Made by a program: the position numbers and the translations under genes. DNA of 64,000 nucleotides. It comes from a virus. The stretch is taken from IMG/VR virus record IMGVR_UViG_3300045988_183539. One strand, given 5' to 3'. The stretch's first letter is position 1. Each line of letters begins with the position of its first letter. Below the pieces are notes generated by a model. The model ran no database searches, had not been told where the DNA came from, and saw only the letters and a program-made list of their open reading frames with translations. Positions 3,218 to 60,945 of this stretch are shown piece by piece.

Positions 3218-3246
3218 TTATAAAATTATATATTTGTTTTAAAGAT

Positions 3247-3281: not shown

Positions 3282-3365
3282 ATAGAATAAACATTTATTT
3301 ACAATTAATAAAAAAATAATAGGACATTATTCTATATATATAGTTTTTTTTGAAAGGAAGTTTTT

Positions 3366-4175: not shown

Positions 4176-4201
4176 TTTCTTCTTAAAATATAGGAGAAAT
4201 T

Positions 4202-10576: not shown

Positions 10577-11443
10577 ATGAGAAAAATAATAAATAATTTT
10601 GTACAAATATCTATTCTGTTATGTTTTATTGTAATTTTTAGTTCAAATAAAATAAATGTATATGCTTCAGATGATATTCCAACAGTAACACTTGATGCTG
10701 GACACGATAGCTTTCATACAGGAGCAACAGCAAATGAATTATATGAAGAAAAATTAAATTTAATAATTACAAATTATTGTAAAGATTATTTAGAAAAACA
10801 TTCTAATATTATTGTGTATTTATCAAGGGATAATTTTACCTGTCCTTATCCAGACACACCATATAAAGATTGTAATTATGAAAGGTTAATAAAAGCAAAA
10901 GAAGTAAATACAGACCTTTTTTATAGCATTCATTGTAATTATAGTCCACACGAATATATGAATGGAGCTAGTGTTATAATTCCAAATACAAATTTTAAAC
11001 CATATTTTTATGAAGAAGGAAATATATTAGCAAATATTATAAAAAATAATTATAGTAATTTAATTCCTGTTACAGAAATATATACAAGAAATTCAGATGA
11101 AGATGAAGAAACAATAGATAATTTCTATCCAGATGAAACAAGGGCTGATTATTATAATGTAAATAGAACAAGTAAATATAATGATTTTTTAGGAATTATT
11201 GTTGAACACGGATTTCTTTCTAATACAAATAATGCAGAAATTTTAAAGAATACAGATATTTTAAAACAAATAGGTGAAGCTGATGCAAAGTCTATAATAG
11301 AGTATTTTAAAAATAAAGGATATGATTGTGAATTAGAATATATAGAACAAAAAACAACACCCGATATTGATAAAGTAAAAGATTTATTTATAAAAGAAAG
11401 ATACAAAAAATTCAAATTTTTTATAGAATTTTTAAATAAATAA
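10577..11443 (+). CDS. N-acetylmuramoyl-L-alanine amidase (Amidase_3/CwlD-like) with signal peptide
   Basis: N-terminal hydrophobic signal; motifs TLDAGHDSFHTGAT, SIHCNY, EHGFLSN typical of the Amidase_3 fold. Confidence 0.7.
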   Translation: MRKIINNFVQISILLCFIVIFSSNKINVYASDDIPTVTLDAGHDSFHTGATANELYEEKLNLIITNYCKDYLEKHSNIIVYLSRDNFTCPYPDTPYKDCNYERLIKAKEVNTDLFYSIHCNYSPHEYMNGASVIIPNTNFKPYFYEEGNILANIIKNNYSNLIPVTEIYTRNSDEDEETIDNFYPDETRADYYNVNRTSKYNDFLGIIVEHGFLSNTNNAEILKNTDILKQIGEADAKSIIEYFKNKGYDCELEYIEQKTTPDIDKVKDLFIKERYKKFKFFIEFLNK

Positions 11444-11526
11444 CAACGCTTTTTTACACTTAACTACATTATTATTATAAAACTGTTTAATGGTTTTATA
11501 TTTTAATGAATAAAGGAGTAAAATAT

Positions 11527-13353
11527 ATGAACAAAAATGAGTATGTATCATATTTTTTAGAGGACATTGAAGAACTTTTGGTAGATAACGCTAAAAGCTT
11601 TTATAATATTAGTGCAGCTAAGACATATGATGATGACAAAAGTCCAATATTATTAGTAGGTTATCCTAATTCTGCAATGAGAGCATATGAAATCCCATAT
11701 ATAAAAAGAGATATTAAAAATGCTAATGATTATAGAGATATTTTAACAATTTATAGAGATAAAATAAGAGATTTAAAAACAAATATTATTCTTGATATAG
11801 AAAATTATGAAAATACTCTTGATAATATTAATAATTTTAGGAATACTCCAACAAATGTAGAAAATACAGAAATAGCAGAGGAAATTCCTAGAACAAGATT
11901 ACATTCAGATGAATATTATGAAGAGTACGATACAGATTATTATTCTGAATTTATTGATACAGTAAAAGATTGGATTAGAGATTATGAAGTAGAACATAAT
12001 TGTCATATTGATGATGGTGATTATGGAGCATTGTATAATGATTACAATAATAATGATGATAGCTTTTTAGAAACTATGCTTAGTAATCTTGATAAATTTA
12101 ATATAACTTATAATACTGTTTCAGAAGATAGGCAGGAAGAATTTGATAATGCTGTTCAGGACTTAACAAGTACAGAGGAACAGGAGAGTGAAAATCCTTT
12201 AGATACTGATGAAAGAATAGTTCTTAATCATACAGAAGATTATTATGAAGACTTTGACCCTTATGATTTTGAAGAATTTAAGGATGTTGTAAATGATTAT
12301 ATTGAAGATTACAATAAAACAGTTAGTGAAGACAAAAAAGTTCAGAGAGAATCTATTAGTGAATTTATATTAGAAGACCTTTATGAAAATGATTATTTAG
12401 ATGAGCCATTAAGCTTTTATCATTCTTTTTTAGAAGTTATGGAAGATAATATTGGAAAAATTGATTTTGAAGCAATAGAAAGACATAATTTAATTCCAGA
12501 TGAAAATGAATATATACCTCATCATACAAGAGATTATTATGAAGATTATGATACAGATTATTTAGATGAATTCATTGAAACAGCTAAAGAATGGATTGAA
12601 GATTATGAGCATCTAAATAGTGTGACTATAATAATAGATGATGAGGAATTTGAAGACTTAAATGCTATTTATCAGGATAATGATTATAGTTTTAATGCAA
12701 CAATGCTTGATAATATGGGTAAAGTATTCTATGTTATTAATCATCCAGAAGAATATTATAATAGATTAGATGGACTTATTAGCAATAAAGAACATTTTGA
12801 AAAAAATGCTAAGGAATGGATTAATGATAATTTTAAATACTTAGTTATTTTGTCTAAATCTGATATAGATAATATAGATTATAGTGAGATATATAATAAT
12901 TATTGTAATAATGGTATATCATTTGTTGATACAATGCTTAATAGTATGATTAATTATGATTATTTGATAGAAGACCCAAGAGAAGGTATGGTCTTTACTC
13001 AACCTATTAGCCATATTGTAACACAGCAAAATACTATAAATGAAACTGTAAGCACAAATAGAAGAACTCCACAAGAGCTTAGAGAACTTTATAATCAGGC
13101 AAAAGATTTTGAAAATGTAAGAAATAATCTTGAAAAATTCTTACTAACAGATGAAGATAAAACTAATAATAATATTTATGAAAATTCTGACGGGTTTGGT
13201 TATAGAATTATTTTTGATGATAATACTAAATTAAAAGTACCTAAGTCTATGATTACTAAATGGATAGATGATTATGGTATTGATTATATTGAAGAAAACT
13301 TGTTTAATAAGTCATTTGAATGTCAAGATAATGACGAAATATCTTTAGATTAA
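11527..13353 (+). CDS. highly acidic protein with three internal repeats (possible DNA-mimic/anti-restriction-like)
   Basis: AAAGGAG RBS 7 nt before ATG 11527 (the track ORF starts at 11506). Repeats of YYE-[ED]-[YF]D-x-DY...EFI-x-T-x-K-[DE]WI-x-DYE. Very high Asp/Glu/Tyr content. Confidence 0.55.
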   Translation: MNKNEYVSYFLEDIEELLVDNAKSFYNISAAKTYDDDKSPILLVGYPNSAMRAYEIPYIKRDIKNANDYRDILTIYRDKIRDLKTNIILDIENYENTLDNINNFRNTPTNVENTEIAEEIPRTRLHSDEYYEEYDTDYYSEFIDTVKDWIRDYEVEHNCHIDDGDYGALYNDYNNNDDSFLETMLSNLDKFNITYNTVSEDRQEEFDNAVQDLTSTEEQESENPLDTDERIVLNHTEDYYEDFDPYDFEEFKDVVNDYIEDYNKTVSEDKKVQRESISEFILEDLYENDYLDEPLSFYHSFLEVMEDNIGKIDFEAIERHNLIPDENEYIPHHTRDYYEDYDTDYLDEFIETAKEWIEDYEHLNSVTIIIDDEEFEDLNAIYQDNDYSFNATMLDNMGKVFYVINHPEEYYNRLDGLISNKEHFEKNAKEWINDNFKYLVILSKSDIDNIDYSEIYNNYCNNGISFVDTMLNSMINYDYLIEDPREGMVFTQPISHIVTQQNTINETVSTNRRTPQELRELYNQAKDFENVRNNLEKFLLTDEDKTNNNIYENSDGFGYRIIFDDNTKLKVPKSMITKWIDDYGIDYIEENLFNKSFECQDNDEISLD

Positions 13354-13435: not shown

Positions 13436-13495
13436 ATCGAACATCTGTTGGGTGTCGAAATTGACTAAACTAGGAAAGAAATTTTTAGGTATTTA
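13436..13495 (+). repeat. copy A of the conserved ~55-nt noncoding element (ATCGAAC...GGTGYCGAAA-N-TGACTAAACTAG-rAAAr-TTTTTAGG)
   Basis: Near-identity to 29661-29725 and 58285-58341 seen directly in the sequence. Confidence 0.7.
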
Positions 13496-13529: not shown

Positions 13530-14300
13530 ATGTATTGGGAAAATATAGAAGAACAAGTATGGAATAATGCTAGTTTTGTAAATAGTAAAGAAATACAAGA
13601 GATTAGAAGTAAACAATTTAAAAATCCTGTTATTTATGTTGATATGGATGGTACATTGTTTCAATGGAATAGATTAAAAAGTAAAGAATACCCAGATGGT
13701 GTTACTTTAGAAATGGTTTATTCACCTGGTTATTTTAGAAATTTAAAACCTAATTTAGGTATTTTAGAATTAGTAAATGCTTTACACGATAAAGGATATG
13801 ATATAAAGATAGCATCTAAATCTAGTTATACAGCTATAAAAGAAAAATTTGATAGCTTAATGGAATATTTACCTTTTTTAAACAAAAATGATATTTATTT
13901 TATTCCTTTAAATGCAAATAAGTCAGATTTTCTTCCAAATATAAAATCTAATGATATTTTAATAGATGACTATAATCCTAATTTAGATGAATTTAAAGGA
14001 AGTGTTATAAAATGTGTTACAGATATTAATACAATAAATCCTAAATACCCTTGGATTGAAAATAATGCTCCAGTTTATAAAAATATAGATAAAATAACTT
14101 GGACTTTAATAAGAGAATGGAAGTTTTCACAAAATTCAGAAAATCCTTTAAACTTTACAGATTTAAAATACATTTTTGATAAAAGTGTTATGTCTTTTGA
14201 AGATTTTTATAATATATGTAATGGTTTTAATATTAATTTAGATGAGTTTGCTTTTTTAAAAACAGAAAATGAAAAAGATGAAGAAGAAATAGAAATATAA
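13530..14300 (+). CDS. HAD-superfamily 5'(3')-deoxyribonucleotidase-like protein
   Basis: N-terminal VIYVDMDGTLFQW (DxDGT HAD motif I in the NT5C-like context); 256 aa. Confidence 0.55.
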   Translation: MYWENIEEQVWNNASFVNSKEIQEIRSKQFKNPVIYVDMDGTLFQWNRLKSKEYPDGVTLEMVYSPGYFRNLKPNLGILELVNALHDKGYDIKIASKSSYTAIKEKFDSLMEYLPFLNKNDIYFIPLNANKSDFLPNIKSNDILIDDYNPNLDEFKGSVIKCVTDINTINPKYPWIENNAPVYKNIDKITWTLIREWKFSQNSENPLNFTDLKYIFDKSVMSFEDFYNICNGFNINLDEFAFLKTENEKDEEEIEI

Positions 14301-26017: not shown

Positions 26018-27286
26018 ATGGAAAAAATAAAATATTCAGCTAGTGAAAAAAAGAATAGACATTTGTTATTTGAAACTAATAAAAATTTATTTATTACAGG
26101 AGCAGGAGGTACAGGAAAATCTACTTTTCTAAATGAATTTATAGAAAAGAACCCTAATACAATAGTAACAGCTCCAACAGGAATAGCGGCTGTAAATATA
26201 GGAGGAGTAACAACTTTTAATGCTTTTAGTATACCAATACCTTGTTTTGGAGCTACAACAAATAAACTGACTGAAGCAAAATTAAAGAAGATAATTATGG
26301 TTGATAATGTAATTATTGATGAAATAAGTATGTGCAGAGTAGATGCTTTTGTTTATATCACAAAGGTAATTAAAAAAGCTGAAAAGATAAAAGGTAAGAA
26401 GATAAGAATTATTGTTAGTGGGGATTTCTCACAGCTTCCTCCTGTAATTACAGATGAAGATGCTAAAATGTTAAAAAAATTTGGTTTTCATAAGTCTGGG
26501 TTGCCTTTTACTTGTAAAGAGTGGGAAAATTGTCATTTTACTACTATAGAGCTTACAGAAGTTAAAAGACAGGATAATCTTGAATTTATAGAAAACTTAA
26601 ATAAAGCCAGATTAGCAGATAAAAAATGTATAACATATTTTAATCAGTTTGTAACAGATGAAATTCCAGATGATTGTATTCATATATGTGGAACTAACGC
26701 AGAAAGTTCTAAACTTAATAAAGAATATTTGGACTCATTAGAGGGTATGCCATATGCGTATCAGGCAGTAAAACAAGGAAGAACTACAGGAGCATATGTA
26801 GATGATATTATTATTCTTAAAGATGGAGCAAATGTATATTTTACAGTCAATGATATATACGAGCATAAATATGTTAATGGAACATTTGGAAAAATACATA
26901 AATGTTTTAATGACCATATAGAAGTAGAAGTTGATGAAGAAATAATAGATGTTTACCCACACAGATATTCGGTTTATAATTATAAAATTATAAATGGAGT
27001 ATTAAAGAAAGAAGAAATTGGTTCAGTTTTACAAATGCCTTTAAAATTAGCTAAAGCAATTACTGTGCATAAATCCCAAGGCAAAACTTTTAATAAAGAA
27101 GTGTTTACACCTAAAATATTCGCAGCAGGACAGGCTTATGTTGCATTAAGCAGAGTAAGAAATCCTGAAGGTTTATTTTTAACAGAACCTTTACTTCCAG
27201 AACAATTAATGTCAGACAGAACAGTACTTAAATTTTATAAAAATAATTATAAATTTGAAAGTAATCGTAAAAAAACAGAAAAATAA
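26018..27286 (+). CDS. Pif1/RecD-family (AAA_30 + UvrD_C_2) DNA helicase
   Basis: ITGAGGTGKST Walker A, APTGIAAVNIGG, IIDEISM Walker B, TVHKSQGKTF, AAGQAYVALSRVRNPEGLF C-terminal motif. Confidence 0.75.
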   Translation: MEKIKYSASEKKNRHLLFETNKNLFITGAGGTGKSTFLNEFIEKNPNTIVTAPTGIAAVNIGGVTTFNAFSIPIPCFGATTNKLTEAKLKKIIMVDNVIIDEISMCRVDAFVYITKVIKKAEKIKGKKIRIIVSGDFSQLPPVITDEDAKMLKKFGFHKSGLPFTCKEWENCHFTTIELTEVKRQDNLEFIENLNKARLADKKCITYFNQFVTDEIPDDCIHICGTNAESSKLNKEYLDSLEGMPYAYQAVKQGRTTGAYVDDIIILKDGANVYFTVNDIYEHKYVNGTFGKIHKCFNDHIEVEVDEEIIDVYPHRYSVYNYKIINGVLKKEEIGSVLQMPLKLAKAITVHKSQGKTFNKEVFTPKIFAAGQAYVALSRVRNPEGLFLTEPLLPEQLMSDRTVLKFYKNNYKFESNRKKTEK

Positions 27287-27526: not shown

Positions 27527-28558
27527 TTACTCTAATTCATAATTACAATCATCATTATGAGTAATATTTATATCTATAATATTGTTATTACAATTTTTTT
27601 TAGCTGTTTTTTGGTCTTGTAACAATTTTTTTGCTTTATATAAAAACGTAGGATTATTTTTAATTTGAGCTTTATTCATATTGTTAATTATATCATTAAT
27701 TTCATTCATAGATAGTATAGTAATATCATATTTTTTACTAAAGCTATTGTTAGGTATAAAATTAGGATTGTATGTATTATATTCTTGTGTTTCTAATATT
27801 TCCTGTTTCGTTTCTTTATTAAGATATTTTGATACTTCTTTTTCGTTAAGGGATTTTCCCTGATATAATGCTAATATACATATATCATACATAATAGTAG
27901 CTTCTAAGTCATTAGCTGGCTTTATATGGTCATATATATTAAGATAACAAGTATCTATTAAAGTAAATATTTCTTTGTCAGATAAGGATATATTATATAA
28001 TTCTCGAAAGTTTTGTAATTTAATTTGAACTATGTCATCATATTTTTCTGTTATTTTTAAAACATTTTCATAGGCATAGTTAAAAGCTTCACGTTCTAAT
28101 GAACATAAAACATAAAAACATAAAGCAATTTCTTTACTCTTTATATATAGATTGTTATAATCATTTATATATAAATATGCTTTTTTAGACTGTATATAAA
28201 ATACATCATTAAATTGTATTATTTTGTTAAGTTTAAAAAACGAATTAGTTTCTATTAATTTATTTTGATGACTGTGATATAATTCGTGATATAAGGTGTT
28301 ATATAATACATAACAATTGTCATCTCTATTAGATGTTAAAAGGTCTGCATTAATTTTTATAATCTTATCATCATAAGAAAAAAATCCATTTATATCTGGA
28401 GAATTAAAGTTTTTAATAATAAGTTTAGAACAGTTATTTGGAATATTTTTCTTTATTTTATCAAAAAGGGAAAAAGTTATTTTTTCTTTACGATTAATAG
28501 ATAATATTTTCCAATTTTTAGAAGTGAAATAATCTTCAAGCTTACGTTTAAAAAACAT
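27527..28558 (-). CDS. hypothetical protein with HExxH motif (possible zinc metalloprotease-like)
   Basis: 343 aa; YHELYHSHQN contains HELYH. Confidence 0.45.
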   Translation of the reverse strand: MFFKRKLEDYFTSKNWKILSINRKEKITFSLFDKIKKNIPNNCSKLIIKNFNSPDINGFFSYDDKIIKINADLLTSNRDDNCYVLYNTLYHELYHSHQNKLIETNSFFKLNKIIQFNDVFYIQSKKAYLYINDYNNLYIKSKEIALCFYVLCSLEREAFNYAYENVLKITEKYDDIVQIKLQNFRELYNISLSDKEIFTLIDTCYLNIYDHIKPANDLEATIMYDICILALYQGKSLNEKEVSKYLNKETKQEILETQEYNTYNPNFIPNNSFSKKYDITILSMNEINDIINNMNKAQIKNNPTFLYKAKKLLQDQKTAKKNCNNNIIDINITHNDDCNYELE

Positions 28559-28570
28559 AATAGTTCTCCT

Positions 28571-28912
28571 TTATACATATAAATAAAAAAACGAATGTAA
28601 ATATTTTTCTTTATCTTTGTAATTATTTTTACAATAATCATTAAAATAAGGCAAACACATTATAAAATCGTGAATTTGGTTAAAATTATAATCTGAATAC
28701 ATTATATCCCTAATAGATAATCCTTTCACCTTAATATCACTAATATTTTTATTATTTAGCCATTCATAAAAATTAGGAAGGCATTTATCTGGTATATATT
28801 CAGTTCTATTTTTTATAAGCCTTATGGCTTCATCTTCATCATAATCATATCCATCATCATAGGATTGTAATTTTAATATCATTCTTTCTTTTAAATCTTT
28901 AGGTATGGTCAT
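28571..28912 (-). CDS. hypothetical 113-aa protein
   Basis: ORF track. Confidence 0.45.
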   Translation of the reverse strand: MTIPKDLKERMILKLQSYDDGYDYDEDEAIRLIKNRTEYIPDKCLPNFYEWLNNKNISDIKVKGLSIRDIMYSDYNFNQIHDFIMCLPYFNDYCKNNYKDKEKYLHSFFYLYV

Positions 28913-29013: not shown

Positions 29014-29580
29014 TTACTTATTATTGATTTCCTTTTCTTTATTAAAAAATGCTAACCCTATACAAATACTGTCAGCAATATCGTCACTAACATCTATATC
29101 GTATATTTGTTTTACTAATTCGATAGCTCTATTTTTTAATTCTTTTCTTTTTAATTTTACTTTATTTTCTGAATTAGGTATTCCTACAGCTTTTCTCCAA
29201 ACAGTAGGAGAGTAGAAATATATCAAACATCTCTTATGTTCTATTGAATAACTAAGAACTAAGCCTTGTATATGACATAACTTTTTATAAGCATATCCAT
29301 CTTTTCCCATATAAGTATCTTCAATAACTATTACTTTAGGTTTATATTTTTTTAGATAAATATTAATTCCTTTTATCATTTCAATTATTCGATAATCCAT
29401 ATTTTTCTTTTTTATTTCATTTTCCTCTTGTTTATTCATATTTTTATTTGTTTCATAAGGATTATCTGGTTTAATATAAGTGTAATCTATAAGTTCTTTT
29501 GTATTATAATCAAAAACAGCAATACCAGTATTTGTTGTACTTCCATCTATGCTGATTAAATATTGCTTTATTTTATTCAT
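29014..29580 (-). CDS. RuvC-family Holliday junction resolvase-like protein
   Basis: N-terminal ISIDGSTTNTGIAVFD (RNase H-like first Asp motif), C-terminal DIADSICIGLAF. Confidence 0.6.
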   Translation of the reverse strand: MNKIKQYLISIDGSTTNTGIAVFDYNTKELIDYTYIKPDNPYETNKNMNKQEENEIKKKNMDYRIIEMIKGINIYLKKYKPKVIVIEDTYMGKDGYAYKKLCHIQGLVLSYSIEHKRCLIYFYSPTVWRKAVGIPNSENKVKLKRKELKNRAIELVKQIYDIDVSDDIADSICIGLAFFNKEKEINNK

Positions 29581-29660: not shown

Positions 29661-29725
29661 ATCGAACGGTTGTTCCGGTGCCGAAAATGACTAAACTAGA
29701 TAAAAAGTTTTTAGGGTTTATTTAG
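29661..29725 (+). repeat. copy B of the conserved ~55-nt element
   Basis: ATCGAACggttgttccGGTGCCGAAAaTGACTAAACTAGaTAAAAAGTTTTTAGGG; overlaps the stop of the - strand gene 29711-30001. Confidence 0.7.
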
Positions 29726-30001
29726 AAATAATTCTATAGTATTAATAGCACTACCATTTATAGATATAATTTCTAATTCTTCTAATTCTTTTTTTATATC
29801 AGTAGACATTCTTTTACTAAAAAAATCTTTTGTTCTAAAATCAATAGGATTGTTTAAATATTGCTCTATTTCAATAATACCTAACCTTTTATTGGTTTCT
29901 ATTTCATATAAAACAATATGTGTTGGAGCTATTCTTGAATATGATGAACCATATTTTATTATTAAATTTTCTAAAAATACTATATAATCTTTTAATTTCA
30001 T
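29711..30001 (-). CDS. hypothetical 96-aa protein
   Basis: ORF track. Confidence 0.45.
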   Translation of the reverse strand: MKLKDYIVFLENLIIKYGSSYSRIAPTHIVLYEIETNKRLGIIEIEQYLNNPIDFRTKDFFSKRMSTDIKKELEELEIISINGSAINTIELFLNKP

Positions 30002-30783: not shown

Positions 30784-30889
30784 ATATCTTTATAAAGAAA
30801 GACTGTATATTGATTATTTAAATAAAATCAATAACACAGTCTTTTTATTATTTTTACAAAAAAGTGGTTTTTATTATCTTAAAAGTGTG

Positions 30890-30930
30890 CTTTTTTTTCA
30901 CTTTAGCACAATATTATTTTATATTAAAAA
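30890..30930 (+). promoter_or_regulatory. promoter cassette family member
   Basis: TTTTTTTTCACTTTAGCACAATATTATTTTATATTA. Confidence 0.4.
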
Positions 30931-34213: not shown

Positions 34214-34426
34214 ATGGAAGAAAATGTAACAGAAGAAATGATAGACCTGTTAAAAAAAGTAGCTGATTTATGTTGCAAGGCAAGTGAAGAAGTTTATGAT
34301 GATGATAAAGAAAATGGAACAGCAAATATATTAAATTTATGTGATAAGTTACAGGAAGCTATAGATGAATATGTTTTAGATTATGACTGTAAAAAAATAT
34401 TAGAAAATAATGAATTAGAGTATTAA
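34214..34426 (+). CDS. small acidic Cys-containing protein, paralog of 40936-41160
   Basis: EEMIDLLKKVADLCCKASEEVYDDDKENGTANILNLCDKLQEAIDEY aligns with QEMIDILKNISDLCYKASNEVYEDDDKEKGTAKILILCDNLNEVIDDY. Confidence 0.5.
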   Translation: MEENVTEEMIDLLKKVADLCCKASEEVYDDDKENGTANILNLCDKLQEAIDEYVLDYDCKKILENNELEY

Positions 34427-35801: not shown

Positions 35802-36489
35802 AGATTGTATTAATGAACATACTAATGAATTAAGAGAAGATATTTTAGGTTCAAGAAAAGAAAGATGGATGATTGGTGTTAGTTGTATGAGTGGTTGTCC
35901 TGTAAGATGCCAGTTTTGTAATACTGGAAAATTAAAAAGGTATAGAAATCTATCTGCAAAAGAGATATATGAACAGGTTGTTTTTATATTAGACAAGCAT
36001 CCAGAGATAAAAGAGATTGATAGTAAGGAATTTAAGATTAATTATACAAGAATGGGAGAACCTTTTCTTAATATTGAAGCTGTAAAAGAAGCTATCACTC
36101 TTATAGACAATGAGCCAAGATTAAAGAATGTCAAGATACATCATTATATAAGCACAATAGGACTTAAAGGTAGTGATTTTAGTTTTGTAAAGGATAATAT
36201 TACTTTACAAATTAGCTTACATAGTCTTAATGAAGATAGAAGACACAATCTTATTCCTATAGATGGACTTATGAGTATAAAAGAACTTGGCGAAATAAGA
36301 ACAGAAAGTAATCTTAAGACAACTGTTAATATGACGCTTGTAGACACAAAAGACTTTGATATTGATATTATGAAAAAGTATTTTGACCCTAAGTATTTTT
36401 TTATTAAGCTTAGTCCTATTAATGAGAATGAGGTTAGTAAGGAACATAATATGGGTAAAGGTATTATTCATAGAGAAAATTTAATATAA
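35773..36489 (+). CDS. RlmN/Cfr-family radical SAM protein, trimmed form lacking the N-terminal domain and the C-terminal Cys-bearing tail
   Basis: GVSCMSGCPVRCQFCNTG...RNLSAKEIYEQV, TRMGEPFLN, ISTIGL and LQISLHSLNEDRRHNLIPI align with the RlmN core. No Cys after the cluster. Start uncertain (35752, 35773 or 35866). Confidence 0.6.
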   Translation: MKRIIHFYIRDCINEHTNELREDILGSRKERWMIGVSCMSGCPVRCQFCNTGKLKRYRNLSAKEIYEQVVFILDKHPEIKEIDSKEFKINYTRMGEPFLNIEAVKEAITLIDNEPRLKNVKIHHYISTIGLKGSDFSFVKDNITLQISLHSLNEDRRHNLIPIDGLMSIKELGEIRTESNLKTTVNMTLVDTKDFDIDIMKKYFDPKYFFIKLSPINENEVSKEHNMGKGIIHRENLI

Positions 36490-36608
36490 CATTTTTTTAT
36501 TATATCTTCTTAAGTTCTTATTTTTAGGATTTAAGAAGATATTTTTTTATATTCTTTTATTGTATTCTATCCCATAAATAGGGTATAATTAATTATAAGA
36601 GATTGAAT

Positions 36609-36698
36609 ATGAATAAATATATATTAATGCATAAAAATATTGAAGTAGCTTTAATGGATTTAGATGAAAATGATAGAAATGCAAAACCAATAAAATAG
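36609..36698 (+). pseudogene. truncated duplicate of the hipA-like N-terminus
   Basis: MNKYILMHKNIEVALMDLDENDRNAKPIK* versus the N-terminus of 39528 (MKDYILMHKNIEVALMKLDENDANSKPSK). Confidence 0.55.
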
Positions 36699-39510: not shown

Positions 39511-39527
39511 TTGATGAAAGGAAGAAT

Positions 39528-40781
39528 ATGAAAGATTATATATTAATGCATAAAAATATTGAAGTGGCATTAATGAAGTTAGATGAAAATGATGCTAATT
39601 CAAAGCCATCAAAGATATATTTGAATGAAAAAGAACAAGACCATATTCCTATCGGAGCAAGAATGAATAATATTAAATTCATTAACTGGTGGCAGGATAG
39701 GGCAATCCCTAAAACAAGGCAGGGAGCAAGAACAGCTTTACAAAGATTAGGATATAGTTCAGTTACAAATGCTATGATAAATAATCTGGCTTTAAGTCTT
39801 AATGATTGTTATTGGATAAAACCCAGATATTCAGAATTAACTTGGGAAGAAGTTAATTTATTTTCAAATAATTTTGTTGATGCTTTTGGAGAACTCACCT
39901 TTAACCAAACAGAGGATTTAGATTTAAGAAAATATACTAAGTTTTTAAGTGCTGTTTCACAAGGAGAAGTTCAAAAGAAATGGTGTATAGATAAGGATAA
40001 TCATAGGTATCTTGTAAAAGGTAATTATGGCAATTCTTATCAACAAAGCATTAATGAAGTATTTGCCAGCAATTTTCATAAAGACCAAAATTTTAATAAT
40101 TACACACCTTATTATTTTTGCAATATTGAACTTACAAATAACAGAAAAGGATTAGGATGTTTTTCTTATAACTTTTGTAATGAAAATATTGAAAGTATTT
40201 CAGCTTGGGAATTATTACAAACTAGAAAGATTAAACAAAATGAAAGCTTATACTATCCTTTCAAAGATATATGCTTATCGCTAGGAATCAAAGAAGATGA
40301 TTTTGATAATTTTATTGATTATGAGATTTGTAGTGATTTTTTATTTACAAATTTAGATAGACATATGAATAATATAAGTATTTTAAGAAATCCAGACACA
40401 TTAGAAATATTAGGGTTCGCTCCTATATATGATACTGGAAATAGTATGTTTTATAATGTTTCTACTAATGAATTAAATAATGTTAAGTTAGGACAAGATA
40501 AAACACATTCATTTATAACATCAAAAGAAAATAGATTGCTAAAGTATGTTAGAAATAAAGAGATTATAAACATAGATAAAATTAATACTGATTTCTCAAT
40601 ATACGAAAAGGATATTTATGATGATTTAAGGATTTCTTTATTAAAAGAAAAATTTGAAAGAAAAATAGATTTGTTGCTGTCTTTTCAAAAAGGCAATAAT
40701 ATCTGGGAAGATAATTATAATAAAATATATATACAGAATTATAATAATTCAATAGAAACTGATGAAATAGACTTAGATTAA
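39528..40781 (+). CDS. HipA-family Ser/Thr kinase-like toxin
   Basis: C-terminal catalytic motif LDRHMNN (D-x-H-x-x-N) and FAPIYDTGNS (DFG-like) as in the HipA fold; 417 aa. Confidence 0.65.
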   Translation: MKDYILMHKNIEVALMKLDENDANSKPSKIYLNEKEQDHIPIGARMNNIKFINWWQDRAIPKTRQGARTALQRLGYSSVTNAMINNLALSLNDCYWIKPRYSELTWEEVNLFSNNFVDAFGELTFNQTEDLDLRKYTKFLSAVSQGEVQKKWCIDKDNHRYLVKGNYGNSYQQSINEVFASNFHKDQNFNNYTPYYFCNIELTNNRKGLGCFSYNFCNENIESISAWELLQTRKIKQNESLYYPFKDICLSLGIKEDDFDNFIDYEICSDFLFTNLDRHMNNISILRNPDTLEILGFAPIYDTGNSMFYNVSTNELNNVKLGQDKTHSFITSKENRLLKYVRNKEIINIDKINTDFSIYEKDIYDDLRISLLKEKFERKIDLLLSFQKGNNIWEDNYNKIYIQNYNNSIETDEIDLD

Positions 40782-40935: not shown

Positions 40936-41160
40936 ATGTTTAAAAAAAATGAAAATTTAAGAGAAAATAATAATAATATGACACAAGAAATGATAGATAT
41001 ATTAAAAAATATATCAGATTTATGTTATAAGGCAAGTAATGAAGTCTATGAGGATGATGATAAAGAAAAAGGAACTGCAAAGATATTAATTTTATGTGAT
41101 AATCTAAATGAAGTTATTGATGATTATATAGATAATTATGAAGATATAGAATTAGATTAA
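40936..41160 (+). CDS. small acidic Cys-containing protein, paralog of 34214-34426
   Basis: See 34214. Confidence 0.5.
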   Translation: MFKKNENLRENNNNMTQEMIDILKNISDLCYKASNEVYEDDDKEKGTAKILILCDNLNEVIDDYIDNYEDIELD

Positions 41161-43972: not shown

Positions 43973-44003
43973 TGATAATATAAATAATACAATTGTGAGC
44001 TTA

Positions 44004-44042
44004 TTTTTATAAAAAAATAGGCTCTTTTTTTATATTTGCAAC
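44004..44042 (+). terminator. rho-independent terminator
   Basis: gagcttat...ataggctc + T7. Confidence 0.55.
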
Positions 44043-44098
44043 AATATTATTATATAAATTAATTATTTAAATATGTCTAATGGAAAGGAAGATATAAT

Positions 44099-47285: not shown

Positions 47286-47330
47286 TTATAATACATTTTT
47301 AGAAAGGGATTATTATTAAAAATAATCTCT

Positions 47331-47365
47331 TTTTTTATACTTTAATACACTATTATTAAAAGATG
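47331..47365 (+). promoter_or_regulatory. promoter cassette family member
   Basis: TTTTTTTATACTTTAATACACTATTATTAAAAGAT. Confidence 0.4.
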
Positions 47366-49178: not shown

Positions 49179-49700
49179 ATGGGAAATTATTATAAAGGAA
49201 ACATCCGATTTATATTAAGAAAAGATTTACCAGAGTTTATAATAGATGCTTTATTATTTATACAAGATAAAGATTTTAAAATGCCTAAAAAATAATCAGG
49301 AATAGATATTTTTAATGAAGAAAATAGAAATAAGGTCAATATTGATTTTTCTGCTATAATAGATGATATAGATAATACTATGTTTATAGATAAAGATAAT
49401 TATAAATATATTACTAATATATATAAAAATCAAATTGTTGGATATGAATTATTTGTTTCAGTAATACTCAATGGTAAAAATAATTATAATGATTTAATTG
49501 ACAAATGGTATTCTTTCTTTAAAGATTACATAGATATTTCTTTAAGCAAAGAATGCTTTACAGTTAAAAATGATAATATTCTATTAGGAGAAGTTCACGA
49601 TGAAGATGGTACTTATGATAGATATTATCTTCTAAATACCCCATATATTATTTCAAATTTACAAAAATATATAAATTATGAAAATGATTATGAGGTATAA
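49179..49700 (+). pseudogene. gene with strong RBS interrupted by an in-frame TAA at 49293-49295
   Basis: AAGGAG RBS before ATG 49179. 49179 and the track ORF 49380-49700 share a frame (difference 201 nt). Only one stop separates MGNYYKGNIRFILRKD...KMPKK from SGIDIFNEEN... Confidence 0.4.
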
Positions 49701-49719
49701 ATAAGCTTAAAATATGTCT

Positions 49720-49760
49720 TTTTTTTCACTCTTTCGCATTATTATTGTATAAATAAAAAA
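49720..49760 (+). promoter_or_regulatory. promoter cassette family member (clearest copy: TTCACT-17-TGTATAAAT)
   Basis: TTTTTTTCACTCTTTCGCATTATTATTGTATAAATAAAAAAGGAG. Confidence 0.45.
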
Positions 49761-52887: not shown

Positions 52888-53249
52888 ATTAAAAAGGAGA
52901 AAAAAATGGATTTATAGATATATTATAAAATAGATAATGATTTATATTTTGATAAATATGAAGTGACTTGTTCTTGTTCTGATAATTTGTATTACGCATC
53001 TAATATAAATGATAATCAGTATCGTATAAAAACATAATAATATTGATTTAGACTAATAGTTTGGTTAAGATTGGAGTATCATATGGATAAGTTAGATAAA
53101 AAAACATACATAAATATTGTTAGAAAAATTATGAAAAGACCTTTAGATATTTTCCCTGAAGAATGGATAATAAGTGTTTTATAATAAGCTGATGATAAGA
53201 TTTATAATAAAAAGTGATAAAGAGAGATTTAATACAGGTTTCTCTTTAT

Positions 53250-53285
53250 TTTTTTTTACTTTTTCACACTATTATATATAGATTA
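53250..53285 (+). promoter_or_regulatory. promoter cassette family member
   Basis: TTTTTTTTTACTTTTTCACACTATTATATATAGATT. Confidence 0.4.
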
Positions 53286-53407
53286 AGAAAATTAAGATTT
53301 ATGGAGAGTCAAAAGTAAGCCAGCAATTTAGATTTGAAAGATATTTCGGATGATAATAATAATAAATTAAATAAAAACTGAAACTATTAGAAACAAGAAA
53401 ATCTTAT

Positions 53408-57001: not shown

Positions 57002-59674
57002 ATGAATAGTAATAATATTGTTGAATGTATGTTTTTTGGTCAGAGATTTAATGAAAAGCCTTCTAAAATGGAAACAGGATATATACAGAAGAATATAACG
57101 ATTGCAAACATAACAATAGAAAATTTAGCAGAAGCTCTTGTTAATGGTGCTTCTTTTAGACCAAGCATATTAATAGGGGGACGTACAAAAGATGATTGGA
57201 AAAGACAACAGCTTTTTGGTTTAGATTTTGATAGTGGTGTTTCTATTGATGCATCATACAATAAAGCTATATCATTAGGTCTTATTCCTGTATTTATGTA
57301 TACTACATTTAGTCATACTCCAGAACATCACAAATATAGAATGATTTTTTGTACAGATAAAGTCATTACAGATATGGCTTTAAGAGACAAATTCCAAGCT
57401 ACTCTTATGGGTTTAATGGGAGATATAGATAAAGTATGTTTTAACAGAGATAGATTATTTTTTGGAGGAAAAGGTAAAGAAATACTTTTTCCTAATTTCA
57501 ATGCAAAACTTAATGCAGAAGAAATTATAGATAAGTATTGGAAAGATGATTTTGAAGTATATATAAAAGGACAAACTAAGTCAAAAAAAAGAAAATTAAA
57601 GAAAACAACAGAACCTAAGCAAAATAATTCATTTACTGTTATAAATTATGAACCAGATATTGATGAAATACCTTATGCAAGTTATCCAGTAAGATGTGTT
57701 ACCTTAGGTAATTTACGTTGTCTAAAAAAATATTATGATAGTATTATTTGGGCAGAAGGAATGCACAGAGAAAGATTTATTTTTATTTACTACAATTGTG
57801 TTAAATTACTTTATGGTTCAGATAGAGCTTATAAAGAATGTATAGAATTAAATAATAGTATGGAAGAACCATTAACAACATATGAATTAAAATCTGCAAT
57901 AATACATACAGATGAACATATGGAAAATAAAGATTGGTATAGAAAAGCATTACACGGAGATGGATGTTTTATTTTTAGACCTGAAACAATTATTTCAGAT
58001 AAATGGTTAAATATAGATGAAGAAACAGCTATAAAATGTGGATTTTTTGATAATAAAATAAGAAAAGAAAAAATAGAAGAAAATAAAAAGTTAGATACTC
58101 TTAGAGATAAAGAAGTAGCTAGATTATATTTATCTGGATTAGGTTATAAAAAAATAGTTAATAACCTTTCTAAGGAATATAAATGTAGTGCATCTACAGT
58201 TAAAAGAACTATAGAGAGATTAGGAATAAAAGAAAGAAATATTTCTTTAGAAGATATAGAGTTTAATGAAAATAAGAAGTATGCCAAACATTCGTTTGGG
58301 GTGCCGAAAGTGACTAAACTAGAAAAAGAAGTTTTTAAGGTAAAGTCTAAAAAAGAAATATCAGATAATAAAGAAGATAATATAGTATTTTTAAATGAAG
58401 ACTGTAAGAGATTATATGAAACGTCTAAAAATGCAGGGTCAGAAAGTAATATTAATGAACAGGAGATAGCTATTGAAACAATATTAAATAATCCTACAGT
58501 TAATTACTGTTTAAAAGGTAAAGCTGGTACAGGTAAAAGTTATTGTATTAATAGTTTATTACAGAGATTAACAGAAGAAGAAAGAAAAAAGACATTAGTA
58601 GTAGCTCCAACAGGAGTAGCTGCTTCTAATATTACATATACAACAGCTCATACAATACATTCAATATTTGAGTTATATACATTCGTACAAAGACAAGATG
58701 AACATATTAGGATACCTAAGATTTTATTAAATGTAGATAGAATTATCATTGATGAAATAGGTATGGTAAGAAAAGATGTATTTAATCAGTTAGTACGAAT
58801 TATTAATAATGCTCAAAAATTAACAGGTAATAAAATACAGTTAATATTAGCAGGAGATTTTGGACAGATTTCCCCTGTTGTTACAAAAGAAGATAAAACT
58901 GTAATGGATATTTATTACAAGGGAAGTGAAGATAAATATTTCTGTTTTGATAGTCCTTTATGGGATAGTTTAGATATTCATACAATAGTATTAAGAAATA
59001 ATCATAGACATAATAATGATGATTGCGATGAATTACAGAAAGAATTTATTAATATATGTGATGAGATTAAATTTGGAGCTATATCAGGATTAAAATGGTT
59101 AAATAATAACTTAAAACATACTGCTATAGAAGATGGAATATATCTTTGTGCTAATAATAAACAGGTTGATGTTTATAATAAAATGTATACAGATAAATTC
59201 ACAGATAAAAAGACATATAATGCTGTATGTTTTGGAATTACATCTGAAAGAAAATTACCTGTAAAGCTTAGTTTAGAATTAGCAGTAGGTATGAAAATAA
59301 TGACTCTTGTTAATACAAAGAAATACAAGAATGGTAGTTTAGGAGTAATAACAAAGCTTTATAAGGATAAGATTAAAGTAAAGTTAGATAATACAGGAAA
59401 AGAGATTACTGTAAAATATACTGAATTTAAGATAAATGAAGAAACTGATGAAGTATTATATCAGTTACCAATAGCTATAGCATATGCTATTACTGTAAAT
59501 AAAGCACAAGGATTAACATTAGAGAAAGTAAATATTGTTCCTGGCTTTTTTGCGGCAGGACAATTATATACAGCTATAACAAGAATAAAGAATGTACATA
59601 ATATTAGTATTATTGGTGAATTAAAAGAAACTGATTTAGTTGTAGATACAAGAGCATTAAGTTTTATTGCTTAA
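57002..59674 (+). CDS. replication protein: N-terminal AEP-type Prim-Pol + PriCT-like region + HTH, fused to a C-terminal Pif1/RecD-like helicase
   Basis: N-terminal LFGLDFDSG (DxD) and TTFSHTPEHHKY (SxH) primase-polymerase motifs; HTH ASTVKRTIERLG. Helicase motifs LKGKAGTGKSY, VVAPTGVAASNI, IIDEIGMV, ITVNKAQGLT, AAGQLYTAITRIKN. GAGAGGAG RBS. Confidence 0.7.
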   Translation: MNSNNIVECMFFGQRFNEKPSKMETGYIQKNITIANITIENLAEALVNGASFRPSILIGGRTKDDWKRQQLFGLDFDSGVSIDASYNKAISLGLIPVFMYTTFSHTPEHHKYRMIFCTDKVITDMALRDKFQATLMGLMGDIDKVCFNRDRLFFGGKGKEILFPNFNAKLNAEEIIDKYWKDDFEVYIKGQTKSKKRKLKKTTEPKQNNSFTVINYEPDIDEIPYASYPVRCVTLGNLRCLKKYYDSIIWAEGMHRERFIFIYYNCVKLLYGSDRAYKECIELNNSMEEPLTTYELKSAIIHTDEHMENKDWYRKALHGDGCFIFRPETIISDKWLNIDEETAIKCGFFDNKIRKEKIEENKKLDTLRDKEVARLYLSGLGYKKIVNNLSKEYKCSASTVKRTIERLGIKERNISLEDIEFNENKKYAKHSFGVPKVTKLEKEVFKVKSKKEISDNKEDNIVFLNEDCKRLYETSKNAGSESNINEQEIAIETILNNPTVNYCLKGKAGTGKSYCINSLLQRLTEEERKKTLVVAPTGVAASNITYTTAHTIHSIFELYTFVQRQDEHIRIPKILLNVDRIIIDEIGMVRKDVFNQLVRIINNAQKLTGNKIQLILAGDFGQISPVVTKEDKTVMDIYYKGSEDKYFCFDSPLWDSLDIHTIVLRNNHRHNNDDCDELQKEFINICDEIKFGAISGLKWLNNNLKHTAIEDGIYLCANNKQVDVYNKMYTDKFTDKKTYNAVCFGITSERKLPVKLSLELAVGMKIMTLVNTKKYKNGSLGVITKLYKDKIKVKLDNTGKEITVKYTEFKINEETDEVLYQLPIAIAYAITVNKAQGLTLEKVNIVPGFFAAGQLYTAITRIKNVHNISIIGELKETDLVVDTRALSFIA
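58285..58341 (+). repeat. copy C of the conserved ~55-nt element, embedded in the primase-helicase CDS at the linker between HTH and helicase domains
   Basis: AAACATTCGTTTGGGGTGCCGAAAGTGACTAAACTAGAAAAAGAAGTTTTTAAGG; encodes ...KHSFGVPKVTKLEKEVFKV... Confidence 0.7.
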
Positions 59675-59735
59675 ATAAAAAGCAGTTAAAAAATACAATA
59701 CATAAATTAAGATTATATGAAAGGAAATTAAAATT

Positions 59736-60209
59736 ATGGATAAAAGAAAAGTAATGACAGGACATTATCAGGAAAATATGTTTGGAGATTTAATGGATAG
59801 AGAAGATTATTTTCATAAGCTGCCGAACCTTTCAAGAAGACAGGTAGAACTTCCTAAGGAAAAAGAGAAAGTATTTTTTATAAAAGAAGATGAAATTGAT
59901 TGGGGATTAAGAAGCCAAGAGCTATTAGATGAAGAAAAAAATACGATATATGAAGTATATGATTTAACTGAATGTCCAGAAGATGCAACAATATATAGAG
60001 ATTTATTTAACGCTAATGATTATATTGCTGCATTAAAATTAGGAATGAAATTAGCAAAAGAAGGTTACACATCTATAAAAGTTATGGATATAGATAAATT
60101 AAATGAATATCTTGAAAGTAAGAATAAAGAGAAGGCTGTAGAAAATACTAAAGAAACAACAAAAGAAATAGCTGATAAAGAAATAGAAGATTTGTTCATA
60201 TTAGATTAA
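59736..60209 (+). CDS. hypothetical 157-aa protein
   Basis: AAAGGAAAT RBS. Confidence 0.45.
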   Translation: MDKRKVMTGHYQENMFGDLMDREDYFHKLPNLSRRQVELPKEKEKVFFIKEDEIDWGLRSQELLDEEKNTIYEVYDLTECPEDATIYRDLFNANDYIAALKLGMKLAKEGYTSIKVMDIDKLNEYLESKNKEKAVENTKETTKEIADKEIEDLFILD

Positions 60210-60855: not shown

Positions 60856-60872
60856 TAAAATATTTTTAAAAT

Positions 60873-60909
60873 AAGGGCTGTTTTTTAAGACAGAACCCTT
60901 ATTTTTTTT
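60873..60909 (+). terminator. rho-independent terminator
   Basis: aagggctg...cagaaccctt + T8. Confidence 0.55.
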
Positions 60910-60945
60910 CACTTTGAGACAATATTATTGTATAAAGTGATATTG
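60905..60945 (+). promoter_or_regulatory. promoter cassette family member
   Basis: TTTTTTTTCACTTTGAGACAATATTATTGTATAAAGTGA. Confidence 0.4.

What the first reader, a model, noticed from the sequence alone, without database searches (positions are those of the whole stretch)
58285..58341. Copy C of the conserved element sits inside the primase-helicase CDS, at the domain linker
The motif lies in the frame encoding KHSFGVPKVTKLEKEVFKV, between the HTH/PriCT part and the Pif1-like helicase part of the 890-aa replication protein. A stand-alone helicase paralog exists at 26018-27286, which suggests the fusion is modular and that the motif marks the seam. It could be a recombination junction that created the fusion. 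It could also be a cis site (ssi/ori) placed inside the gene for its own product, as in some plasmid rep genes.
Basis: partly seen in the sequence, partly recalled or inferred. Interest (0 to 1): 0.7.

Follow-up and report, generated by a model that had tools for sequence, protein, structure and literature searches.

The report
Conserved nucleic-acid element inside replication gene
A roughly 60-base element that also occurs between genes sits in frame inside the linker of a plasmid primase-helicase gene, is kept at the nucleotide level in very rare codons, and reads like a ribosome-binding site plus start codon that could yield a helicase-only protein, although a DNA priming signal is not excluded.

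Summary
Three same-strand copies of a ~57-nt element lie at 13437-13492, 29661-29718 and 58279-58341. The third lies in frame in the 890-aa gene, between its HTH and its Pif1 helicase domain.

The anatomy is a 5' hairpin, an exposed tract (Y)CGAAA-NTG-ACTAAA, then an A-run/T-run hairpin.

The in-gene core is written in very rare codons (GGG, GTG, CCG, CTA). It is kept 23/23 in a homolog with 56% protein identity that was found by protein search.

It is not the seam that created the fusion. More distant fused homologs lack it. It lies in a clade-specific ~29-codon insertion. The real modular break is at residues ~190-230.

The replicon looks like a conjugative megaplasmid or ICE (VirB4-like and VirB11-like ATPases). 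About 15 further loci in related gut contigs carry the element, but the search that found them required the core.

Best reading (about 0.4): a portable translation-initiation module, with GGGTG as Shine-Dalgarno, a 6-nt spacer and an A/T/G-TG start. In the rep gene it would give a helicase-only isoform, residues 437-890.

Main rival (about 0.2-0.25): a RepB'/ssiA-type priming signal, since the N-terminal domain folds like RepB'.

Function is inferred, not shown.

The parts
58279..58341 (+). Copy C of the element, in frame inside the rep gene. Hairpin 1 is 58279-58304 (loop 58290-58293; the 3' arm contains GGGGTG). The single-stranded tract CGAAAGTGACTAA is 58305-58317. Hairpin 2 (A-run/T-run) is 58318-58341.
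   Evidence: Sequence. RNA fold -15 kcal/mol, z -2.5. Core coordinates. Rare codons.
58300..58322 (+). 23-nt core GGTGCCGAAAGTGACTAAACTAG. It reads as a Shine-Dalgarno-like GGGGTG (58298-58303), a 6-nt spacer, an in-frame GTG (58310-58312, codon 437), then ACT AAA CTA G.
   Evidence: Anti-SD duplex -8.4 kcal/mol, against a median of -8.2 for real genes; top ~4% of random positions.
58310..59674 (+). Putative nested in-frame ORF (454 aa) that would give a helicase-only isoform, residues 437-890. This is an inference.
   Evidence: Frame check. It aligns over its helicase core with the 422-aa stand-alone paralog and with stand-alone relatives that start ~27 residues downstream of the NTG.
57002..59674 (+). 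890-aa replication protein: AEP primase-like domain (res 1-190), disordered K-rich stretch (191-213), helical bundle (228-345), HTH (~365-410), linker with the element (~420-470), Pif1 SF1B helicase (480-890).
13437..13492 (+). Copy A, intergenic: core 13451-13473, TTG at 13461, 11-codon mini-ORF to 13496. It lies 38 nt upstream of the NT5C-like ORF 13530..14300.
29661..29718 (+). Copy B, plus-strand, between two minus-strand ORFs (RuvC-like 29014..29580 and a 96-aa ORF 29711..30001). Core 29677-29699, ATG at 29687, 12-codon mini-ORF to 29725. It shares an extra 5' stretch (TTTAATGAAAAT.A.AAGTA) with copy C.
26018..27286 (+). Stand-alone Pif1-like helicase paralog (422 aa). It is not preceded by the element.

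Best explanation
The element acts as single-stranded plus-strand nucleic acid, most likely RNA, and is a portable translation-initiation module.

How it is built. A 5' hairpin carries a Shine-Dalgarno-like GGGTG in its 3' arm. A fixed 6-nt spacer follows, then a start codon that varies only between TTG, ATG and GTG. Next come the invariant early codons ACT AAA CTA G, and then a weak A-run/U-run hairpin.

What it does in the rep gene. There it lies in the only frame that is open through it. It would let ribosomes start at codon 437 and make a helicase-only isoform (res 437-890) beside the full primase-helicase. T7 gene 4 does the same (gp4A and gp4B).

What the other copies do. Intergenic copies start mini-ORFs of 6 to about 34 codons whose peptides are not conserved. 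Their role (leader, ribosome loading, mRNA protection or titration) is unknown.

Shown: the anatomy, the nucleotide-level constraint, the typical Shine-Dalgarno strength and spacing, the contexts, and the exchange of sequence between copies.

Inferred: that the element is translated, and that an isoform exists.
For: 1. Shine-Dalgarno strength. The anti-SD duplex of the 18 nt before the NTG is -8.1 kcal/mol (A) and -8.4 (C). The median of 51 real genes is -8.2, and these values are in the top ~4% of random positions. GGTG-type Shine-Dalgarno sites with 5-9 nt spacing are used by real genes here.

2. The one free position. In the core it is A, T or G in all 29 copies and never C. Orthologous copies flip T/G.

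3. Diverged copies. L002/L003, L008:1208 and L006(-) keep GGGT(G), the spacer length and TTGACTAAACTAG, while the spacer letters change.

4. Promoter-proximal copies. Five loci have the replicon's canonical promoter at a fixed distance upstream. The NTG then sits about 47 nt after CACTT, against 42 nt for a real gene (30946 GTG).

5. Structure. Folds put the NTG in an unpaired tract between two hairpins, with the Shine-Dalgarno site in the 3' arm of hairpin 1. G.U pairs mean that only the plus strand forms these hairpins.

6. Frames. The other two frames hit TGA/TAG and TAA inside the core. The in-gene copy therefore has its NTG in frame with a complete Pif1 domain.

7. Constraint in the gene. 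GGG is used at 5%, GTG at 4%, CCG at 1.3% and CTA at 3.7% of synonymous choices. P(codon string | peptide) = 4.5e-9. The core is 23/23 identical in L004, found by protein search, at 56% protein identity.

8. Precedent. T7 gp4B starts at internal codon 64 of gene 4 (PMC1616965).
Against: - There is no expression or proteomic data.
- A start site does not explain why ACTAAACTAG and CCGAAA are nearly invariant.
- Intergenic copies only open short ORFs with non-conserved, frame-shifting peptides (L015 against L020). It is unclear why such a module is kept there.
- Copy B and L006(-) point against their neighbouring genes.
- Two unrelated loci hold inverted pairs with a fixed 45/46-nt spacing. This fits a DNA-level or bidirectional-unit reading at least as well.
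- More distant fused homologs have no comparable internal start.
- Most extra copies were found by exact match to the core, so their 'invariance' is partly ascertainment.
Confidence: 0.4

Rival explanations
1. It is a single-strand initiation signal (ssi) for the replicon's own RepB'-like primase. The plus-strand ssDNA hairpin, followed 4-5 nt later by xTG, would be recognised by the AEP and helical-bundle domains. Primer synthesis would start at the T of NTG. Solitary copies would prime complementary-strand synthesis (after conjugative entry, or on the lagging-strand template). The inverted pairs would act like ssiA/ssiB of RSF1010 oriV. The copy in the gene's linker would be a cis site kept next to its protein.
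For: - ssiA is a 6-nt tail, a hairpin at nt 7-27, and a start at T32 of a GTG triplet. ssiA and ssiB are 40-nt inverted repeats (PMC8567376).
- Here hairpin 1 ends 4-5 nt before an invariant TG.
- All three window copies are on one strand whatever the local gene direction (copy B).
- Inverted pairs with arms of 43-46 nt and 45/46 nt between them occur in two loci whose flanking proteins are unrelated.
- Origins inside rep coding regions at a dispensable linker are known (pSK41, pT181: PMC5703833).
Against: - Five loci lack hairpin 1. Instead they carry a canonical promoter at a fixed distance upstream, which an ssi does not predict.
- A priming signal would resemble a start region (Shine-Dalgarno strength in the top 4%, correct spacing, start-codon-only variation) only by roughly 1% coincidence. 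That figure is my rough estimate, combining the top-4% value with an assumed chance of about 0.25 of an NTG at the right spacing.
- The 5' tail before the hairpin is not conserved, whereas RepB' reads that tail.
- There are 5-8 dispersed copies, against two in RSF1010.
Confidence: 0.22
2. It is a family of small sibling transcription units (sRNA-like), or a shared binding site for one trans-acting regulator (protein or RNA). The exposed 14-nt tract between the hairpins would be the recognised part. The in-gene copy would place rep mRNA under the same regulator, or the intergenic copies would titrate it.
For: - Several copies have their own promoter and are followed by the next gene's own canonical promoter, so they look like stand-alone short units.
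- Copies pointing against their neighbours (B, L006-) and divergent pairs fit autonomous units.
- Orthologous copies differ more than their flanks and share variants with paralogs. This indicates gene conversion, as in sibling RNA families.
- Downstream genes are mostly DNA-metabolism genes: C5 methylase, UvrD-like helicase, SNase, NT5C, T5orf172.
Against: - No Rfam family matches.
- There is no convincing terminator: hairpin 2 is all A-U/G-U, and no terminator was called.
- No complementary partner of 10 nt or more to the plus-strand element exists in the window.
- RNAalifold finds no covarying consensus structure.
- An sRNA gene embedded in frame in a coding sequence is awkward.
Confidence: 0.18
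3. It is the fossil start region of a once separate helicase gene, and so marks the seam of the gene fusion. The intergenic copies would be stubs left by recombination.
For: - The core looks like a gene start.
- Copy B carries about 20 nt of flanking rep coding sequence (FNENKKY region), so at least B was copied from the gene.
- Stand-alone helicases begin within ~30 residues of the site.
Against: - The fusion is older and wider than the motif.
- The motif lies in a clade-specific insertion.
- A fossil would not keep rare codons and 23/23 nt across 44% protein divergence.
- The swapped module breaks at ~190-230.
Confidence: 0.05

Closest known systems
Nested in-frame start in a replicative primase-helicase gene (T7 gene 4: gp4A and gp4B)
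   Same: One coding sequence for a primase-helicase carries an internal ribosome-binding site and an in-frame start. This yields a shorter protein with helicase activity only (PMC1616965). From my own knowledge, not checked here: RSF1010 makes RepB' from an internal start within mobA/repB.
   Different: - In T7 only the zinc-binding part (63 residues) is dropped. Here the whole primase, helical-bundle and HTH part (436 residues) would be dropped.
- The helicase is SF1B Pif1-like, not a DnaB-like hexamer.
- The start module is also present in several intergenic copies, which T7 does not have.
- No protein evidence exists here.
RSF1010 ssiA/ssiB priming signals read by primase RepB'
   Same: - The signal is a hairpin followed a few nt later by an xTG start triplet.
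- Inverted pairs on opposite strands occur.
   Different: - There is no sequence similarity to ssiA.
- The 5' tail is not conserved.
- Some copies have no hairpin.
- Copies are dispersed over tens of kb and one is inside a coding sequence.
- Primase, DNA-binding and helicase functions are fused in one 890-aa protein, instead of RepB', RepC and RepA.
Origins located inside rep coding regions at a dispensable linker (pSK41 RepA_N Rep boxes; pT181 dso)
   Same: The cis DNA site is encoded in the central, variable linker part of the initiator gene of Firmicute plasmids (PMC5703833).
   Different: Those origins are tandem Rep boxes or nick sites, present once and bound as dsDNA. Here there is a single non-palindromic unit, with further copies elsewhere in the replicon and no tandem iterons next to it.
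Promoter/leader sequences propagated upstream of unrelated genes within one genome ('mobile promoters'; my own knowledge, not checked in the library)
   Same: Near-identical 50-100-nt upstream modules sit in front of non-homologous genes and show signs of recombinational spread. Examples are the 27-nt direct repeats of promoter sequence flanking L008:1208 and gene conversion between copies.
   Different: One copy lies in frame inside a gene. The downstream genes keep their own promoter and ribosome-binding site.

Membership tests
Internal in-frame translation start (nested gene) in a replication protein | A Shine-Dalgarno site at proper spacing upstream of an in-frame ATG/GTG/TTG inside the coding sequence | tested here: met
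   GGGGTG, 6 nt, then GTG at codon 437. Duplex -8.4 kcal/mol, against a gene median of -8.2. The same layout with TTG is seen in L004, L007, L011 and L002.
Internal in-frame translation start (nested gene) in a replication protein | The shorter product is a complete functional domain | tested here: met
   Residues 437-890 contain the whole Pif1 core. They align with the 422-aa paralog and with stand-alone relatives.
Internal in-frame translation start (nested gene) in a replication protein | The shorter protein is actually made | not testable with these tools
   This needs proteomics, ribosome profiling or western blotting.
RepB'-type single-strand initiation signal (ssi) | The cognate primase has the RepB'/AEP fold with a helical-bundle domain | tested here: met
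   [not shown]
RepB'-type single-strand initiation signal (ssi) | A stable hairpin followed within a few nt by the start triplet, in every functional copy | tested here: inconclusive
   Present and strong in copy C, L007 and the L008 copies (z -2.5 to -5.6). Weak in A, B and L009. Absent in five promoter-proximal copies.
RepB'-type single-strand initiation signal (ssi) | A conserved 5' single-stranded tail that the catalytic domain binds | tested here: not met
   The sequence 5' of hairpin 1 differs between copies: ATAAAT in A and B, AGTAT in C, others elsewhere.
RepB'-type single-strand initiation signal (ssi) | Strand- and orientation-specific priming activity | not testable with these tools
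   This needs an M13 ssDNA conversion assay.
Origin inside the rep gene (iteron / Rep-box type) | Tandem repeated initiator-binding sites within the linker-coding DNA | tested here: not met
   Only one unit lies in the gene. No repeat of the linker occurs in or near the gene, other than copies A and B 29-45 kb away.
Known structured RNA families (Rfam 15) | A match to a covariance model | tested here: not met
   No hit at gathering threshold in the window. Only chance-level hits at E > 0.4 around copies. No tRNA or tmRNA.
Gene-fusion seam / recombination junction | The motif co-occurs with the fused architecture, and split versions break at the motif | tested here: not met
   Fused homologs without the motif. 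The motif is an insertion relative to all other relatives. The domain swap point is at ~190-230.

The most novel reading that the evidence does not exclude
The element is a dispersed, strand-specific priming signal for a single-polypeptide RSF1010-like replication machine, in which a RepB'-fold primase, a DNA-binding HTH and a Pif1 helicase are fused. One signal is kept, in rare codons, inside the protein's own linker. The inverted pairs with fixed 45/46-nt spacing would be the vegetative origins. The same bases may also double as an internal translation start, so that one 23-nt core is read at the DNA, RNA and protein levels.
Probability: 0.2. Interest if true: 0.7.

Novelty: new variant of a known kind. 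Interest (0 to 1): 0.5.

Why it matters
If the internal start is real, this uncultivated gut megaplasmid family sets the ratio of primase-helicase to helicase-only protein with a hairpin-gated start site. That would be a new instance of the T7 gene 4 logic, in an unrelated fusion (AEP primase with Pif1 helicase).

If it is a priming signal instead, it would extend RepB'/ssi-type sequence-specific priming from small IncQ plasmids to very large Firmicute elements.

Either way it is a clear case of a coding sequence constrained by a non-coding function. The element is also a practical sequence marker for this family of AT-rich conjugative elements, which has no match in the phage or plasmid reference collections searched here.

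Tried and rejected
- Known RNA. Rfam at gathering threshold and at permissive E-values, and tRNA/tmRNA scans, found nothing.
- Reference collections. Phage and plasmid collections hold no relative of the gene's DNA or of the element. The plasmid collection gave protein-level hits only, to the helicase half or to the first ~175 residues.
- IMG/VR. The strict pattern gave 0 hits. The relaxed pattern gave 5 hits. At least two of them (L029, L030) read as ordinary gene starts (MTKLE/MTKLD) in contigs of 32-37% GC, and the number fits my rough estimate of chance for a 17-base pattern.
- Linker repeats in distant homologs (L022-L025): none.
- A trans-acting complement of the plus-strand element in the window: none of 10 nt or more that could pair with it.
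- Conserved peptide: rejected. The A/T-run length is not frame-preserving (L015 against L020; L006 against L014) and ORF lengths vary from 6 to about 34 codons.
- Sigma-70 promoter within the element: rejected. The distance from TTGACT to TAGG varies from 17 to 23 nt.
- Reverse-strand promoter (TAGTCA-N17-TATAAT). It fits the five promoter-proximal copies only, not the hairpin copies (and inspection).
- Intrinsic terminator: not called in two of the three regions scanned. The only call is a minus-strand site over hairpin 1 in the copy C region. Divergent pairs have no incoming transcription.
- Resemblances recalled from memory: the 3' end of the Cas13a repeat, the Tn3-family inverted repeat (GGGG...TAAG), integron attC R''/R' boxes, and the sigma-28 -10 box (GCCGATAA). 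Each fails on the defining stem, pairing or spacing, and all were dropped as leads.
- L001 (the MAG contig that looked like a 'split' version) is a mosaic. Only positions 116-2103 match the window, there is no start codon, and I read its 3' side by eye as a formate-tetrahydrofolate ligase gene. It is probably an assembly chimera.
- RNAalifold consensus: only 6 invariant pairs and no covariation.
Full report
**1. Observation**

The 23-nt core GGTGCCGAAAGTGACTAAACTAG is at 58300-58322. It lies inside ORF 57002..59674 (890 aa), in the frame that reads KHSFGVPKVTKLEKEVFKV.

Two more copies lie on the same strand.
- Copy A has its core at 13451-13473. It is intergenic, 38 nt before an NT5C-like ORF.
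- Copy B has its core at 29677-29699. It lies between a RuvC-like ORF and a 96-aa ORF, both on the minus strand.

This is more than chance.
- Short-word BLAST of the linker finds copy B at E 1.3e-6 and copy A at E 0.005.
- The same element recurs in many related contigs.

**2. What the replicon and the protein are**

The window is 25% GC and nearly all genes are on the plus strand.

It encodes a VirB4/TraG-like ATPase, a VirB11-like ATPase, a cell-wall amidase and a flotillin-like protein. It has almost no PHROG matches. It therefore looks like a conjugative megaplasmid or ICE, not a phage. Related contigs reach 107 and 273 kb. No relaxase was seen in the window.

The 890-aa protein has these parts.
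- A Pif1-family SF1B helicase at 480-890 (Pfam 1.5e-24; PDB profile 1e-77).
- A weak LuxR-type HTH at ~365-410.
- An N-terminal domain that sequence libraries do not recognise.

An AlphaFold model of residues 1-430 (pLDDT 85.6) shows four regions.
- An alpha/beta domain at 1-190.
- A disordered stretch at 191-213.
- A helical bundle at 228-345.
- The HTH.

**3. Anatomy of the element**

Alignment of 15 hairpin-bearing copies, the listing of all 29 copies and single-sequence folds agree on four parts.
- **Hairpin 1.** Its loop and upper stem vary freely. Its 3' arm is GTT(T)GGGTG(Y)C. It is strong in copy C (-15 kcal/mol, z -2.5), in L007 (z -2.7) and in two L008 copies (11 bp, z -4.8 and -5.6). 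It is weak in A, B and L009.
- **An unpaired tract**, (Y)CGAAA-NTG-ACTAAA.
- **Hairpin 2**, CUAG(A)n / (U)nAG. It is built only of A-U and G.U pairs and its length varies.
- **A 3' flank**, seen in intergenic copies only. It is a loosely conserved TTTATTTAAT-AAAAA-TATTAT stretch that resembles the replicon's own promoter.

Some changes are compensatory. The Y position is C paired with G in L008:9159 and in copy C. It is T paired with A in L008:11311 and L007. That is too few cases for statistics, and RNAalifold finds no covarying consensus.

Because of the G.U (G.T) pairs, only the plus strand can form these hairpins. This points to RNA or plus-strand ssDNA, not to a duplex operator.

Five loci (L013/L018, L019, L021, L006 minus strand, L008:1208) lack hairpin 1. 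Instead they have the replicon's canonical promoter (TTTTTTCACTT..ACAATATTAT..TATA, many copies in the window) at a fixed distance upstream.

**4. Nucleotide-level constraint in the gene**

The in-gene core uses GGG (5% of Gly codons), GTG (4%), CCG (1.3%, 4 of 315 Pro codons), GTG again and CTA (3.7%). The probability of this codon string given the peptide is 4.5e-9.

L004/L005 were retrieved by protein similarity alone. They are 56% identical in protein and 69% in DNA. They keep the core 23/23, inside a linker that otherwise barely aligns.

L002/L003 (62-65% identical) keep GGGGTG and TTGACTAAACTAGAAAAAG. They have changed the six bases between and have lost both hairpins.

Between the window and L007 (96% identical overall), 54 of 112 mismatches fall in 58200-58450. 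Yet the 37-nt core has 3 mismatches against 32 in the 87 flanking nt (Fisher p 0.0009).

Caveat. L006-L021, including L007, were found by exact match to the core. Invariance among them is therefore partly ascertainment. The evidence free of this bias is L002-L005 and the codon usage.

**5. Is it the seam of the fusion?**

No.
- Homologs at 37-45% identity have the same domain order without the motif and without any linker repeat nearby. They sit in plasmid or ICE contexts with relaxase, coupling protein, ParA or resolvase genes.
- In an alignment with ~645-aa relatives (helical domain + HTH + Pif1) and with stand-alone helicases, the window has about 29 extra residues (YAKHSFGVPKVTKLEKEVFKVKSKKEISD) exactly at the motif. 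The motif is thus a clade-specific insertion into an existing linker.
- The module that is really exchanged is the AEP domain. It is shared at 54-62% identity with hundreds of 625-645-aa Lachnospiraceae proteins, and the break is at ~190-230.
- L001, which looked like a split version, is a mosaic contig without a start codon.

**6. Contexts of the other copies**

Of 13 intergenic loci, 11 point the same way as the next gene and lie 38-308 nt before its start. The exceptions are copy B and L006 (minus strand).

The next genes are often DNA-metabolism genes: NT5C, a C5 methylase with an intein, a UvrD-like helicase, SNase, T5orf172 and YpsA/DUF488. Most of them keep their own canonical promoter and ribosome-binding site downstream of the element.

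Two loci with unrelated flanking proteins carry inverted pairs. Their arms are 43-46 nt long and 45 or 46 nt apart.

Orthologous copies differ more than their 97%-identical flanks. The differences fall at the loop, at Y, at N and in the A/T run. The variants are shared with paralogs, which indicates gene conversion between copies.

Copy B also carries about 20 nt of the rep coding sequence (FNENKKY region) that is ancestral to the gene. At least B was therefore copied from C.

**7. Mechanism: best reading**

The core reads as a translation start region.
- GGGTG pairs with the anti-Shine-Dalgarno sequence as well as the median real gene does (-8.1 and -8.4 against -8.2 kcal/mol; top ~4% of random positions).
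- The spacer is 6 nt.
- The only free base gives TTG, ATG or GTG, and never CTG, in 29 copies.
- Diverged copies keep both blocks and the spacer length while changing the spacer letters.
- In promoter-proximal copies the NTG sits where a real gene's start sits relative to the promoter.

The other two frames contain TGA/TAG and TAA. An in-gene copy must therefore use this frame, which puts the NTG in frame with a complete helicase.

I therefore favour a portable, hairpin-gated translation-initiation module. In rep it would make a helicase-only isoform, as in T7 gene 4 (PMC1616965).

Three things remain unexplained:
- the invariance of ACTAAACTAG and CCGAAA;
- the purpose of mini-ORFs whose peptides are not conserved;
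- the inverted pairs.

**8. Rivals**

The strongest rival is a RepB'/ssiA-type priming signal.
- For it: the primase fold; the ssiA-like geometry of hairpin, a few nt, then xTG (PMC8567376); the single-strand logic; copy B's independence from local transcription; the inverted pairs; and the precedent for origins in rep linkers (PMC5703833).
- Against it: the hairpin-less, promoter-proximal copies; the unconserved 5' tail; and the improbable coincidence of a full start-site look.

A sibling small-RNA or common-regulator site explains the autonomous-looking units. It has no terminator, no partner and no Rfam relative.

The fusion-seam fossil is largely refuted.

**9. Comparison and novelty**

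The element's sequence matched nothing in Rfam or in the phage, plasmid and IMG/VR collections.

By mechanism it is closest to nested in-frame starts of replication proteins, or alternatively to IncQ ssi signals. It is not shown to be a member of either class (see the membership table).

I rate it a new variant of a known kind, with moderate interest. It is a clear dual-constraint sequence in an uncharacterised family of gut conjugative elements, but its function is only inferred.

Noticed in passing
window 30852-30923, 36480-36551, 43985-44056, 49680-49751, 60863-60934, and many more (e.g. 53248-53294, 47329-47361): A highly stereotyped intergenic module occurs in front of many genes: a terminator-like hairpin, a T-run, then CACTTT-N3-ACA(A/C)TATTAT-N2-TATA. 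It is far more uniform than ordinary sigma-70 promoters. This suggests a dedicated sigma factor or RNAP specificity, or recombinational spread of the module.
   Followed up: partly
L008:9443-11266: A C5 cytosine DNA methylase gene carries an intein/Hint domain (Pfam Intein_splicing, Hint_2). The gene is flanked on both sides by direct copies of the element (cores at 9148-9170 and 11300-11322).
   Followed up: no
L006:3291-3428 and L008:1100-1230: Two loci with unrelated flanking genes hold back-to-back inverted copies of the element. The spacing between the arms is nearly the same (46 and 45 nt). In L008 the pair sits at a divergent gene junction, next to ~300 nt of extremely AT-rich DNA. It is a candidate origin or a bidirectional unit.
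   Followed up: partly
L001 (CAJKDR010000057.1) 1-115 and 2104-6517: This MAG contig, binned as Clostridiaceae, matches the window only at 58056-60055. Upstream it joins unrelated sequence. Downstream it joins what I read by eye as a formate-tetrahydrofolate ligase gene. It is probably an assembly chimera and not evidence for the host.
   Followed up: partly
window 11902-12608: Three ~86-nt in-frame repeats (69-79% identical), spaced ~300 nt apart, lie inside the 615-aa ORF 11506..13353. That ORF has no family match.
   Followed up: no
window 34223-34399 vs 40975-41154, and 36605-36694 vs 39524-39613: Paralogous gene segments (75-84% identical) lie about 3 and 6.7 kb apart, which indicates local gene duplications.
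   Followed up: no
L002:20891-22126; L003:3392-4633; L002/L003/L004 flanks: The neighbourhoods of the homologous rep genes carry a TnpB (OrfB_IS605) gene and an HNH endonuclease insertion. They also carry a set of RNA-repair-type genes (Thg1-like, RtcB, Tpt1-like, an RNA-ligase-like gene, ADP-ribosylglycohydrolase).
   Followed up: no
window 27619-28910: This ~1.3-kb stretch holds two minus-strand ORFs (343 aa and 113 aa). It is absent from the otherwise 97%-identical contig OGHJ01000475 (L015), so it is an indel within the small minus-strand block next to copy B.
   Followed up: no
L023:8329-8347: The linker-coding region of a distant homolog (P0008) contains a 19-nt near-perfect palindrome. 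It has no similarity to the element.
   Followed up: no
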